Shown here: positions 45,101-48,100 of the stretch, one piece after another
How positions within the stretch are numbered: the stretch's first letter is position 1
Layout: every line of letters starts with the position of its first letter
Assembly (NCBI RefSeq): GCF_030013205.1
Contig: NZ_CP122648.1
Direction: 5' to 3' (one strand)
Origin: Escherichia coli
GTDB taxonomy: Bacteria > Pseudomonadota > Gammaproteobacteria > Enterobacterales > Enterobacteriaceae
Length of the DNA: 64,000 nt
Program-made: the position numbers

Positions 45101-48100
45101 CAGCTTTCATGTCCTGCATACGACGAGTTGCTGCTTCAATATCATCTTCTTCTTTCACTTTGCTGGTTTTCAGCAGAATGGCAGAGACAACGAAGGAGAC
45201 AGCTATCGCCGCACACACACCCGCGATGTTAGCGAAGTATGCACCTTTTGGTGTCATCGCCAGTACAGCAAGGATAGAGCCCGGAGATGCCGGAGAAACC
45301 AGACCACCGCCCAGGATAGTCAGCGTGAACACGCCAGTCATACCACCGAGGATAACGGCCAGAATCAGACGCGGATTCATCAGCACATACGGGAAGTAGA
45401 TTTCGTGGATACCGCCCAGGAAGTGGATGATTGCCGCACCGCCCGCAGACTGTTTAGCGCTACCACGACCAAAGAACATGTACGCCAGCAGCACGCCCAT
45501 ACCCGGACCTGGGTTAGCTTCAATCAGGAAGAAGATGGATTTACCCAGTTCATGGGACTGCTGAATGCCCAGCGGCGAGAAGATACCGTGGTTAATGGCG
45601 TTGTTGAGGAACAGGATTTTCGCCGGTTCAACAAAGATAGACGCCAGCGGCAGCATGTCATGGACAACCATGAAGTTAACGCCCGCAGCCAGCATTTTGG
45701 ACAGGGCTTCAACAATCGGGCCAATGCCGAGGAATGCCAGAATAGCGAGGATCATCCCGATGATGCCTGCGGAGAAGTTATTCACCAGCATCTCAAAACC
45801 GGATTTGATCTTACCGTCTACCCAGCGGTCGAAGTGCTTAATGCACCAGCCGCCCAGCGGACCTGCAATCATAGAACCGAGGAACATCGGCATGTCTGCG
45901 CCGACGATAACGCCCATGGTGGTAATGGCACCGACTACGCCGCCACGTTCGCCGCCTACCAGCTTACCACCGGTATAACCGATCAGCAGCGGCAGGAGAT
46001 AAGTGATCATCGGCCCGACCAGCTTCGCCAGCGTTTCGTTCGGTAACCACCCTGTTGGAATAAATAACGCGGTGATGATACCCCACGCGATAAACGCGCC
46101 GATATTTGGCATCACCATGTTGCTGAGGAAACGACCAAAGCTTTGCACTTTGATCTTAATATCGGATGACATAAAAACACCCCTTCTTATGTTTGCTGTC
46201 GCGCAGGCTGGAAGCCCGAGGTTTTTTGTTAATGTGGCGGCAGAGGTAGCCGGACCTTGTAGATACTGCGAAATCTGGCACTGAATCGGTTAACTGTCCA
46301 GTCGACGGCCTTTTGTGTGATATCAGTCACATAAATATAGGGGGTAGAGAGGTAATTGACGTGATGCTCATCACAAAACTCTTGTGTAAAAAAGCAACAA
46401 GGCGGCGATTTTCGCTAAAAATGGCATTTAAATGTGAGTGATGTCACATTTTTGTTTTGATGGTTTGTTGAATTTTTGTGATCTGAATCACAAGATATTT
46501 TCTTACGGCGTTCACCTGATGTGATCTACAGCATGTTATGCCTTCGTCATGAAATCGTTATGTAACTAAGCAACTCATCACCTCTTAAAATTATTCTTTG
46601 GTGTTATGGCGAGAATCGCGAACCCGGATTATTGTCAAAATATCAGCCTGACTCCCTTCTGGCTGCCAGCCAAAAAACAACACCGATAAACGTGAATCCG
46701 AGGCAGATATGTTTCTAAACTATTTCGCGTTGGGAGTGCTGATCTTCGTCTTTCTGGTGATTTTTTATGGAATCATCGCGATACATGACATCCCTTATCT
46801 GATTGCCAAAAAGCGCAACCATCCCCATGCCGACGCTATTCATACGGCGGGCTGGGTGAGCCTGTTTACTCTGCATGTTATCTGGCCGTTTCTGTGGATC
46901 TGGGCGACGCTCTATCAACCGGAGCGTGGCTGGGGTATGCAGTCACATGTTACGTCGCAGGAGAAAGCGACTGACCCGGAAATCGCCGCACTTTCTGACC
47001 GAATTTCCCGGCTGGAGCATCAACTCGCCGCCGAGAAAAAGACTGACTATTCCACGTTCCCGGAGATCTAATTATGGATCTATTGATCGTTTTAACTTAC
47101 GTGGCGCTGGCGTGGGCGGTCTTTAAAATCTTCCGCATTCCGGTAAATCAGTGGACGCTGGCGACGGCGGCGCTGGGAGGCGTGTTTCTGGTGAGTGGTT
47201 TGATTTTGTTGATGAACTACAATCACCCTTACACTTTTACCGCGCAAAAGGCAGTGATAGCGATCCCCATCACGCCACAGGTGACGGGAATTGTTACTGA
47301 AGTCACTGACAAAAATAATCAGCTTATTCAAAAGGGCGAGGTGCTTTTTAAACTCGACCCGGTCCGTTACCAGGCGCGAGTTGACAGACTTCAGGCTGAC
47401 CTGATGACGGCGACGCATAATATAAAGACGCTGCGCGCGCAGCTCACTGAAGCGCAGGCCAACACCACCCAGGTTTCAGCGGAGCGCGACCGTCTGTTTA
47501 AAAATTATCAACGTTACCTGAAAGGCAGCCAGGCGGCGGTGAATCCGTTCTCGGAACGTGACATCGACGATGCGCGGCAAAATTTCCTCGCGCAGGATGC
47601 GCTGGTGAAAGGCTCGGTGGCGGAGCAGGCGCAGATCCAGAGCCAGCTCGACAGTATGGTTAACGGCGAGCAGTCGCAGATTGTGAGCTTAAGAGCGCAA
47701 CTTACTGAAGCAAAATATAACCTTGAGCAGACTGTCATTCGCGCGCCGAGCAATGGCTACGTTACTCAGGTACTGATCCGCCCAGGTACATACGCAGCTG
47801 CCTTGCCGTTGCGTCCGGTGATGGTTTTCATCCCCGAGCAAAAACGGCAAATTGTCGCCCAATTTCGGCAAAACTCGCTGTTACGTCTGAAACCCGGCGA
47901 TGATGCGGAAGTGGTGTTTAACGCGCTACCTGGGCAGGTGTTCCACGGCAAACTGACTAGCATTTTACCTGTCGTGCCAGGCGGTTCTTATCAGGCGCAG
48001 GGGGTATTGCAATCATTAACGGTCGTGCCCGGCACGGACGGTGTGCTGGGAACCATTGAACTGGACCCTAACGATGATATCGATGCCTTACCCGACGGCA

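What the first reader, a model, noticed from the sequence alone, without database searches (positions are those of the whole stretch)
46316..46492. Three perfect CRP consensus palindromes clustered upstream of mtlA
Seen in sequence: tgtgatatcagtcaca (46316-46331), tgtgagtgatgtcaca (46433-46448) and tgtgatctgaatcaca (46477-46492), each matching TGTGA-N6-TCACA at 10 of 10 core positions, within 180 bp of each other in the mtlA / yibI divergent region. Established knowledge: the mannitol operon promoter is strongly CRP-dependent with multiple sites. This is expected biology rather than novelty, recorded because three perfect-core sites so close together are conspicuous.
Basis: partly seen in the sequence, partly recalled or inferred. 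Interest (0 to 1): 0.2.

Follow-up and report, generated by a model that had tools for sequence, protein, structure and literature searches.

The report
Known CRP sites of mannitol operon
The three perfect palindromes are real and far from chance, but they are three of the five long-known CRP-binding sites in front of the E. coli mannitol operon, whose exact spacing was recently shown to let the DNA-blind repressor MtlR dock onto CRP, so the finding is ordinary, well-explained biology.

Summary
Observation confirmed. TGTGA-N6-TCACA occurs exactly three times in the 64-kb window, all at the stated coordinates; shuffles give a mean of 0.05.

The window is E. coli. The region is the mtlADR operator between mtlA (44259-46172, minus strand) and yibI. 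The three sites are the published CRP5, CRP3 and CRP2. Two further published sites were missed: CRP4 (46360-46375, 9 of 10) and CRP1 (46520-46535, 7 of 10). Centre spacings of 44, 73, 44 and 43 bp match the literature exactly (Ramseier & Saier 1995, as cited; Lee et al. 2026, PMC13421365). Pairs of CRP dimers 43-46 bp apart recruit MtlR, which has no DNA-binding domain.

New here: the 44-73-44 layout of CRP2-5 has no indel in 31 of 42 gammaproteobacterial loci examined. It holds to within 1 bp in Aeromonas, Vibrio, Photobacterium and Zobellella, while the spacer sequence is scrambled.

Side lead: a 15-bp TGTA-N7-TACA palindrome (46385-46399) lies at a fixed place in the 73-bp gap in 25 of 41 species. 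It resembles a HexR operator.

Verdict: already known, low interest.

The parts
46316..46331 (.). CRP5, promoter-proximal CRP site (10 of 10 core; 22-mer 46313-46334; centre 46323.5 = -58.5)
   Evidence: Exact match. Matrix score 18.6. Position matches the published map. Conserved in 41 loci.
46360..46375 (.).
   Evidence: One-mismatch match. Matrix score 15.7. Lies 44 bp from CRP5. Reported essential for activation.
46433..46448 (.). CRP3 (10 of 10; centre 46440.5 = -175.5)
   Evidence: Exact match. Best matrix score in the window, 21.1. Lies 73 bp from CRP4.
46477..46492 (.). CRP2 (10 of 10; centre 46484.5 = -219.5)
   Evidence: Exact match. Matrix score 20.6. Lies 44 bp from CRP3. Reported essential for activation.
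46520..46535 (.). CRP1 (TGTGATCTACAGCATG, 7 of 10; centre 46527.5 = -262.5); weak site
   Evidence: Matrix score 9.6, rank 14 in the window. Lies 43 bp from CRP2. The paper reports 7 of 10, poor occupancy and a dispensable role. Scores 9 or more in only 10 of 42 loci, although a GATCACA half-site persists in more Enterobacteriaceae.
46272..46300 (-). mtlA core promoter: -35 TGGACA (46300-46295), 17-bp spacer, extended -10 TGcCAGATT (46280-46272). The inferred start is about 46265.
   Evidence: Read from the sequence. The start follows by arithmetic from the published -58.5 for CRP5. The element is conserved in Enterobacteriaceae. The generic promoter scan did not call it.
46282..46293 (.). Cra (FruR)-like box TGAATCGGTTAA inside the -35/-10 spacer
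   Evidence: Sequence. GATTCAGTGCCAGATT is conserved in Enterobacteriaceae. The Cra consensus is from my own knowledge. The paper states that Cra binds and represses mtl.
46385..46399 (.). 15-bp palindrome TGTTGCTTTTTTACA (minus strand) of TGTA-N7-TACA type, centre 46392 (about -127), in the 73-bp CRP3-CRP4 gap. Candidate HexR/YebK-type operator; an inference.
   Evidence: Position-locked in 25 of 41 species. Invariant in 12 E. coli alleles while both flanks vary. Motif taken from the literature.
44259..46172 (-). mtlA, mannitol PTS enzyme IICBA, the regulated gene
   Evidence: ORF. Pfam EIIC, IIB and EIIA domains. RefSeq annotation of an identical segment.
42429..43016 (-). mtlR, the repressor that docks on CRP pairs. 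mtlD lies at 43016-44164 (minus).
   Evidence: Pfam MtlR PF05068, E = 2.4e-66, and mannitol dehydrogenase domains. Annotation.

Best explanation
The three perfect palindromes are CRP5, CRP3 and CRP2 of the five-site cAMP-CRP operator of the E. coli mtlADR promoter. When cAMP is high, CRP dimers occupy CRP2-CRP5. CRP5 at -58.5 acts like a class I site next to a weak extended -10 promoter, and the upstream sites are also needed for activation. Without mannitol, an MtlR dimer, which has no DNA-binding domain, bridges two CRP dimers bound 44 bp apart (CRP4/5 and CRP2/3) and represses. When mannitol is transported, dephosphorylated MtlA holds MtlR at the membrane and the operon is induced.

Shown here: the sites, their improbability by chance, their exact agreement with the published map, and very deep conservation of the pentamers and of the 44-73-44 spacing. 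Taken from the literature, not tested here: CRP binding, MtlR docking, and the requirement for each site.
For: The three exact matches are the only ones in 64 kb, against 0.05 expected. The four best matrix hits of the window are all here.

The window is E. coli, and the 536-bp region is present in 5404 of 5426 complete genomes. mtlA, mtlD and mtlR lie directly downstream.

The centres at 46323.5, 46367.5, 46440.5, 46484.5 and 46527.5 give spacings of 44, 73, 44 and 43 bp. These equal the published CRP5 to CRP1 positions of -58.5, -102.5, -175.5, -219.5 and -262.5 (PMC13421365). The start site they imply (about 46265) sits 7 nt after a TGcCAGATT extended -10 and a TGGACA -35 with a 17-bp spacer.

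Against K-12 there are 12 substitutions, no indel and none in a pentamer. Across 12 E. coli alleles, 0 of 35 variable columns fall in the 50 pentamer positions.

Across genera, 31 loci have exactly 44-73-44 and 10 more are within 1 bp, out of 42 Enterobacterales, Aeromonadales and Vibrionales loci with arrays. The Firmicutes loci I scanned show no array. Over the same loci the spacer sequence is largely scrambled and the distance from CRP5 to the ATG varies from about 118 to 283 bp.

The paper reports EMSA and chromosomal mutants: MtlR binds only when two sites 43-46 bp apart are occupied; CRP2, CRP4 and CRP5 are essential; CRP1 is dispensable.
Against: Nothing in the sequence contradicts it. 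No binding or expression was measured here. The weight matrix is my own approximation of the CRP logo. The start-site coordinate is derived by arithmetic from the paper's numbering and falls on a T (46265), so it may be off by 1-2 nt. The conserved 73-bp gap is not explained by MtlR docking, because the paper finds that 73 bp does not support MtlR binding.
Confidence: 0.95

Rival explanations
1. The cluster is a chance accumulation of TGTGA/TCACA words in AT-rich intergenic DNA and has no function.
For: Weak CRP-like matches do occur by chance inside coding DNA in this window, at 12899, 15765 and 60882 with 13.5-14.7 bits.
Against: None of 100 shuffles reached 3 exact matches. The pentamers and spacings are conserved across more than 40 genera while the spacers diverge.
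Confidence: 0.01
2. The array mainly, or also, controls the divergent yibIH operon rather than mtlA.
For: The sites lie in a divergent intergenic region. CRP1 is 181 bp from the yibI start codon.
Against: yibIH neighbours mtlA in only 5 of the fetched loci (Escherichia albertii, two Citrobacter, Leclercia, Pseudocitrobacter), yet the array is kept in all 41. The array is at a fixed distance from the mtlA -10 element. The only indel seen in the E. coli alleles lies on the yibI side, at 46672. No paper I found links CRP to yibI, and the term is absent from PMC13421365.
Confidence: 0.05
3. The tandem sites form a CytR-type anti-activation module, in which a DNA-binding repressor is sandwiched between two CRP dimers as at deoP2.
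For: Both systems use tandem CRP sites and a repressor that depends on CRP. The paper itself draws the comparison (Discussion).
Against: The spacings here are 44 and 73 bp, not the roughly 53 bp of CytR promoters (that figure is from my own knowledge). MtlR has no DNA-binding domain and recognises geometry only. The Pfam MtlR family was found downstream.
Confidence: 0.02
4. For the extra palindrome at 46385-46399 only: it is not a HexR operator but a Fis site, an intrinsic-bend T-tract, or a relic without a present function in E. coli.
For: Enterobacteriaceae conserve a T7 run in its centre. Fis is reported to bind and repress mtl. The E. coli copy matches the Vibrio HexR consensus at only 9 of 15 positions. 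Sites of this quality occur 19 times in the window. YebK ChIP-exo in glucose medium lists no mtlA peak. Seven species that lost the palindrome still keep the 72-73 bp gap.
Against: The arms, not the centre, are what persists in Rahnella, Providencia, Hafnia and Aeromonas, where the centre is GC-rich. That pattern is typical of a dimeric protein site. The same ChIP-exo list also lacks zwf, the accepted HexR target, so it is uninformative.
Confidence: 0.55

Closest known systems
E. coli K-12 mtlADR operator (five CRP sites; Ramseier & Saier 1995 as cited in PMC13421365; Lee et al., NAR 2026)
   Same: It is the same locus. The intergenic region has the same 536-bp length, the pentamers are identical, the centre spacings are identical (43/44/73/44) and the flanking genes are the same.
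   Different: There are only 12 point differences. Six fall inside the 22-bp sites, but all of those are in the N6 centres or one flank base. This allele is a minority one: 178 of 5404 genomes are at least 99% identical.
malK (malEp-malKp) multi-CRP regulatory region
   Same: Several CRP sites are arrayed far upstream of a sugar-transport promoter, forming a higher-order nucleoprotein structure.
   Different: The malK sites are 34 bp apart and do not recruit MtlR unless the spacing is lengthened to 44 bp.
CytR-CRP repression complexes (deoP2 and related promoters)
   Same: The repressor works through protein-protein contact with DNA-bound CRP at tandem sites (Discussion).
   Different: CytR binds DNA itself, and its promoters use a different spacing. 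MtlR has no DNA-binding domain and reads only the 43-46 bp geometry.
HexR (RpiR-family) operators: TGTAATTAAATTACA in Vibrio, TTGT-N7-8-ACAA in Pseudomonas. This comparison concerns the side lead only.
   Same: It is a 15-bp palindrome with TGTA/TACA arms. HexR is already predicted to control mtlA in 10 genomes of 2 taxa. The E. coli zwf promoter carries two such boxes.
   Different: In Enterobacteriales HexR is described as a local regulator of zwf only. The E. coli mtl copy has one arm mismatch and a T-run centre. No binding data exist.

Membership tests
cAMP-CRP binding site | Two inverted pentamers, TGTGA and TCACA, separated by exactly 6 bp | tested here: met
   There are three exact matches, one with 9 of 10 and one with 7 of 10.
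cAMP-CRP binding site | Score on the 22-bp consensus well above the local background | tested here: met
The matrix is my own approximation.
cAMP-CRP binding site | Pentamers conserved while the N6 centre is free to vary | tested here: met
   In E. coli, 0 of 35 variable columns fall in pentamers and 7 fall in N6 centres. The same pattern holds across genera.
cAMP-CRP binding site | Physical binding of cAMP-CRP | not testable with these tools
   EMSA is reported in PMC13421365, and in Ramseier & Saier 1995 as cited there.
mtl operator (CRP array that serves as the MtlR docking platform) | Five sites centred at -262.5, -219.5, -175.5, -102.5 and -58.5, with spacings of 43/44/73/44 bp | tested here: met
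   The window centres give 43/44/73/44, as in the published map.
mtl operator (CRP array that serves as the MtlR docking platform) | Lies upstream of an mtlA-mtlD-mtlR operon that encodes an MtlR-family protein | tested here: met
   Pfam hits for MtlR, Mannitol_dh and PTS EIIC/IIB/EIIA. Annotation.
mtl operator (CRP array that serves as the MtlR docking platform) | MtlR binds only to two CRP dimers 43-46 bp apart | not testable with these tools
   Literature only. The spacing requirement is consistent with zero indels in 31 loci.
CytR-CRP anti-activation module | Tandem CRP sites about 53 bp apart with a CytR operator between them | tested here: not met
   The spacings are 44, 73, 44 and 43 bp. 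The 53-bp figure is from my own knowledge.
HexR (RpiR-family) operator (side lead) | 15-bp palindrome TGTA-N7-TACA, with full consensus TGTAATTAAATTACA | tested here: inconclusive
   The window copy TGTTGCTTTTTTACA matches 7 of 8 arm positions and 9 of 15 overall. Nineteen sites of equal arm quality occur in the window.
HexR (RpiR-family) operator (side lead) | Conserved at an orthologous position upstream of a regulon member | tested here: met
   25 of 41 species have at most 1 arm mismatch at exactly -24.5 from the CRP4 centre. Each of the 49 other offsets has 0-1 species.
HexR (RpiR-family) operator (side lead) | Bound by HexR/YebK and released by KDPG | not testable with these tools
   YebK ChIP-exo in glucose M9 lists neither mtlA nor zwf.

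The most novel reading that the evidence does not exclude
The 73-bp gap between CRP3 and CRP4 carries a position-locked TGTA-N7-TACA palindrome (window 46385-46399, about -127). It is shared by Vibrio, Aeromonas, Zobellella and most Enterobacterales and matches the HexR (RpiR-family; YebK in E. coli) operator type. If it is functional, the E. coli mannitol operon is under direct HexR/YebK control. That would make HexR more than the zwf-only local regulator it is described as in Enterobacteriales, and would add a further protein inside the CRP/MtlR nucleoprotein array. Separately, the 73-bp distance is as invariant as the 44-bp distances even in species that lost the palindrome. This points to a rigid four-CRP architecture (73 bp is about 7.0 helical turns) that the MtlR-docking model does not explain.
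Probability: 0.3. Interest if true: 0.4.

Novelty: already known. Interest (0 to 1): 0.15.

Why it matters
For the genome scan this finding can be closed. The conspicuous cluster is the textbook mtl operator, mapped in 1995 and explained mechanistically in 2026. The comparative data gathered here add support to that model: the 44-bp spacings that MtlR needs have tolerated no indel across Enterobacterales and vary by at most 1 bp in Aeromonas and Vibrio. They also raise two modest open points. The first is why the 73-bp gap is equally fixed. The second is whether a HexR-type operator within it is used in enteric bacteria.

Tried and rejected
- **Rfam.** A scan of 45900-47000 at E up to 1 gave no RNA family.
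- **Promoter and terminator scan.** It did not call the mtlA promoter, whose -10 is weak. The one promoter-like and one terminator-like hit were at chance level.
- **Other CRP-like hits.** Those at 12899, 15765, 60882 and 62499 all lie inside ORFs of more than 100 aa and are isolated, so I treated them as chance.
- **yibIH as the regulated unit.** Rejected, because yibIH is next to mtlA in only 5 loci.
- **CytR-type module.** Rejected on spacing.
- **Other regulators for the palindrome.** I considered LexA (CTGT-N8-ACAG), TyrR (TGTAAA-N6-TTTACA), DeoR, lux-box, Zur, and CRP itself with a shortened spacer. I rejected them from memory of their consensus geometry, because TGT-N9-ACA fits none of them.
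- **Literature search.** Searches for HexR or YebK together with mtlA found nothing relevant. Leyn et al. 2011 is not held. The Crp ChIP-exo paper does not mention mtl. The YebK ChIP-exo list has neither mtlA nor zwf, so it is uninformative.
- **5'UTR fold.** RNAalifold gave only an invariant ACCUC/GGGGU helix with no covariation. I did not pursue it.
- **Collinearity with strain W13-16.** It holds only for 1-15000 and 41501-59000, so that strain's annotation was used only there.
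Full report
**1. The observation**

The three 16-mers are in the sequence exactly as quoted. A pattern search finds TGTGA-N6-TCACA three times in the 64-kb window, on either strand, and only at 46316, 46433 and 46477. One hundred dinucleotide-preserving shuffles gave a mean of 0.05 matches, never more than 1. One mismatch adds 46360-46375 in the same region and a single site elsewhere.

I also scanned the window with a 22-bp weight matrix. This matrix is my own approximation of the published CRP logo, so its absolute scores are only indicative. 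The four highest scores of the whole window are all in this intergenic region: 21.1, 20.6, 18.6 and 15.7 bits. A fifth site at 46517-46538 scores 9.6. The best scores elsewhere are 14.7, 14.1 and 13.5 bits. They are isolated, and each lies inside an ORF of more than 100 aa.

**2. What the region is**

The window is Escherichia coli. The 536-bp intergenic stretch 46173-46708 is found in 5404 of 5426 complete E. coli genomes, always on the chromosome. It is 100% identical to strain W13-16.

The flanking genes are:
- mtlA (44259-46172, minus strand), followed by mtlD and mtlR
- yibI and yibH on the plus strand

Pfam confirms the PTS EIIC/IIB/EIIA domains of MtlA, the mannitol dehydrogenase domains of MtlD, the MtlR family (E = 2.4e-66) and DUF3302 for YibI.

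**3. Agreement with the published map**

Lee et al. (Nucleic Acids Res 2026, PMC13421365) cite Ramseier & Saier 1995 and state that the mtl operator has five CRP sites. They name them CRP1 to CRP5, centred at -262.5, -219.5, -175.5, -102.5 and -58.5. The centre-to-centre distances are 43, 44, 73 and 44 bp.

In the window the five centres give exactly these distances:

|---|---|---|---|---|
| CRP5 | 46323.5 | -58.5 | 10 of 10 | yes |
| CRP4 | 46367.5 | -102.5 | 9 of 10 | no |
| CRP3 | 46440.5 | -175.5 | 10 of 10 | yes |
| CRP2 | 46484.5 | -219.5 | 10 of 10 | yes |
| CRP1 | 46527.5 | -262.5 | 7 of 10 | no |

The paper gives the same 7 of 10 for CRP1 and 10 of 10 for CRP2 and CRP3.

The implied start site is about 46265 on the minus strand. 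It lies 7 nt downstream of CAGATT (46277-46272), which is preceded by TG, making an extended -10. A TGGACA -35 sits at 46300-46295 with a 17-bp spacer. A box matching the Cra consensus as I remember it (TGAATCGGTTAA, 46282-46293) lies in that spacer. The paper lists Cra and Fis as further repressors.

**4. Mechanism**

These points come from the literature and were not tested here.
- CRP is essential for activation.
- Chromosomal mutation of CRP2, CRP4 or CRP5 abolishes expression and growth on mannitol. Mutation of CRP3 has a mild effect, and CRP1 is dispensable and poorly occupied.
- MtlR has no DNA-binding domain. It supershifts CRP-DNA complexes only when two sites 43-46 bp apart are both occupied, with an optimum at 44-45 bp.
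- MtlR does not bind the 73-bp pair unless that gap is shortened to 44 bp. It binds the malK operator only after the 34-bp spacing there is lengthened to 44 bp.
- Induction works by sequestration of MtlR on dephosphorylated MtlA at the membrane.

**5. What I added: variation within E. coli**

Against K-12 the region has 12 substitutions and no indel, and none touches a pentamer. I compared twelve E. coli alleles sampled across the identity range.
- There are 35 variable columns.
- None falls in the 50 pentamer positions.
- Seven fall in the 30 N6 positions. The hypergeometric p is 0.002, but the test was chosen after seeing the data.
- The single indel lies on the yibI side, at 46672.

**6. 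What I added: conservation across genera**

I fetched mtlA loci from one genome per species and scanned the 700 bp upstream of each.
- 31 loci, counting the window, have four strong sites spaced exactly 44-73-44. They range from Escherichia to Yersinia, Serratia, Rahnella, Hafnia, Pantoea, Pectobacterium and Dickeya.
- Erwinia and Providencia have 44-72-44.
- Aeromonas, Zobellella, Photobacterium and two Vibrio species have 44/45-73-43/44. Tolumonas has 45-74-43.
- Pasteurellaceae and Orbaceae keep a single 44-bp pair.
- The Firmicutes loci I scanned have no array.

Outside a few short elements the spacer sequences are not alignable. The distance from CRP5 to the start codon ranges from about 118 to 283 bp. 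The constraint is therefore on length and not on sequence. This is what the MtlR-geometry model predicts for the 44-bp spacings.

The paper examined operator layout in only four other species, so this is a wider confirmation rather than a new principle.

yibIH neighbours mtlA in only five of these loci. The array belongs to mtlA.

**7. A lead outside the finding**

The 73-bp gap is as invariant as the 44-bp gaps, yet the paper shows that it does not bind MtlR. Its authors suggest only a phase-dependent architectural role.

Inside the gap I found a 15-bp palindrome of the form TGTA-N7-TACA. In the window it is TGTTGCTTTTTTACA on the minus strand, at 46385-46399.
- Its centre lies exactly 24.5 bp upstream of the CRP4 centre in 25 of 41 array-bearing species at one arm mismatch or fewer, and in 31 at two or fewer.
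- Each of the 49 other offsets in the gap has 0-1 species.
- The arms persist where the centre is GC-rich: Rahnella TGTAGCCGGGTTACA and Aeromonas TGTAGCCGAAATACA.
- The element is invariant in the E. coli alleles while both of its flanks vary.

The form matches the HexR (RpiR-family) operator.
- The predicted motif in Vibrio parahaemolyticus is TGTAATTAAATTACA (bioRxiv 10.1101/2024.07.16.603657).
- The Pseudomonas consensus is TTGT-N7-8-ACAA (PMC5489143).
- Comparative genomics already predicts HexR control of mtlA in 10 genomes of 2 taxa. The same work describes HexR in Enterobacteriales as a local regulator of zwf only (PMC5343134).
- As a control, the K-12 zwf-yebK intergenic region holds the only two TGTA-N7-TACA sites (one arm mismatch or fewer) of an 8-kb stretch. 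Both lie just upstream of zwf.

There are real caveats.
- The E. coli mtl copy matches the Vibrio consensus at only 9 of 15 positions.
- Nineteen sites of equal arm quality occur in the window.
- Enterobacteriaceae conserve a T7 run in the centre, which could equally serve Fis or an intrinsic bend.
- Seven species that lost the palindrome still keep the 72-73 bp gap. The palindrome therefore cannot be the sole reason for that spacing.
- YebK ChIP-exo in glucose medium lists neither mtlA nor zwf.

I put the probability that this is a functional HexR-type site in enteric mtl operators at about 0.3.

**8. Comparison and verdict**

This is the E. coli mtl operator itself, not merely something like it. 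It meets every defining feature I could test: pentamer geometry, matrix score, the pattern of conservation, the published positions and spacings, and the mtlADR context with an MtlR-family gene. Physical binding could not be tested here, but it is published. A CytR-type module is excluded by the spacing.

There are five sites rather than three, and the spacing is the functionally notable feature. Novelty is "already known". I rate interest at 0.15, with a modest side lead in the HexR-type palindrome and the unexplained invariance of the 73-bp gap.

Noticed in passing
window 46385-46399 (centre 46392, about -127 from the mtlA start): A 15-bp palindrome of TGTA-N7-TACA type sits in the CRP3-CRP4 gap. 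It is position-locked relative to CRP4 in 25 of 41 species from Vibrio and Aeromonas to E. coli, and it resembles HexR/RpiR-family operators. HexR control of mtlA has been predicted only outside Enterobacteriales.
   Followed up: partly
window 46440.5 to 46367.5 (CRP3 to CRP4 centres): The 73-bp distance is as invariant as the MtlR-docking 44-bp distances: 38 of 41 species have 73, two have 72 and one has 74. This holds even in species without the palindrome. MtlR docking does not explain it. 73 bp is about 7.0 helical turns.
   Followed up: partly
window 46321-46326, 46365-46370, 46438-46443 (N6 centres of CRP5, CRP4 and CRP3): Substitutions within E. coli and against E. albertii are concentrated in the N6 centres of the CRP sites. 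In E. coli, 7 of 35 variable columns fall in 30 positions (p = 0.002). Against E. albertii, 12 of 88 do (p = 0.001). The pentamers are spared. The test was chosen after seeing the data.
   Followed up: partly
window 46173-46304 (mtlA 5'UTR and core promoter): There is only 1 difference from E. albertii in these 132 bp, against 87 in the other 404 bp of the intergenic region. A conserved ACCUC (46222-46218, minus strand) can pair with the Shine-Dalgarno GGGGU (46183-46179). A hairpin at 46217-46205 changes sequence between genera but appears to stay a hairpin. There is no Rfam match and no clear covariation.
   Followed up: partly
window 46464-46469 (AACAAA, minus strand) and 46337-46344 (CCCCCTAT, minus strand): Each 44-bp spacer carries its own short conserved element. 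AACAAA lies 14-19 bp downstream of CRP2 in nearly all Enterobacterales. A C-run or G-run lies midway between CRP4 and CRP5, appearing as CCCC..GGGG palindromes in Yersinia and Hafnia and as G-runs in Aeromonas and Providencia. Their function is unknown. The 2026 paper notes no similarity between spacers within E. coli.
   Followed up: no
window 46272-46280: The mtlA -10 (CAGATT) is preceded by TG, an extended -10 (TGcCAGATT). Other Enterobacterales have TGgTAGAGT at the same distance from CRP5. The generic promoter scan missed this promoter.
   Followed up: no
window 15001-41500 and 59001-64000: The window is identical to E. coli O139:H1 strain W13-16 over 1-15000 and 41501-59000. It falls out of register with it in the waa (LPS core) to lldP stretch and near yiaJ-yiaM, where that strain carries IS1 and IS3 elements. 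This indicates strain-specific insertions or replacements.
   Followed up: no
window 48668-54156: Next to yibH lie an RHS core protein gene (1376 aa, minus strand), a small hypothetical gene and an Imm57-family immunity gene. Together they look like an Rhs toxin/immunity cassette.
   Followed up: no
locus L042 (Photobacterium pectinilyticum), CRP3-CRP4 gap: In this species the gap contains TTGATAATCATTATCAATAAT, which looks like a near-perfect Fur box by my memory of the consensus.
   Followed up: no
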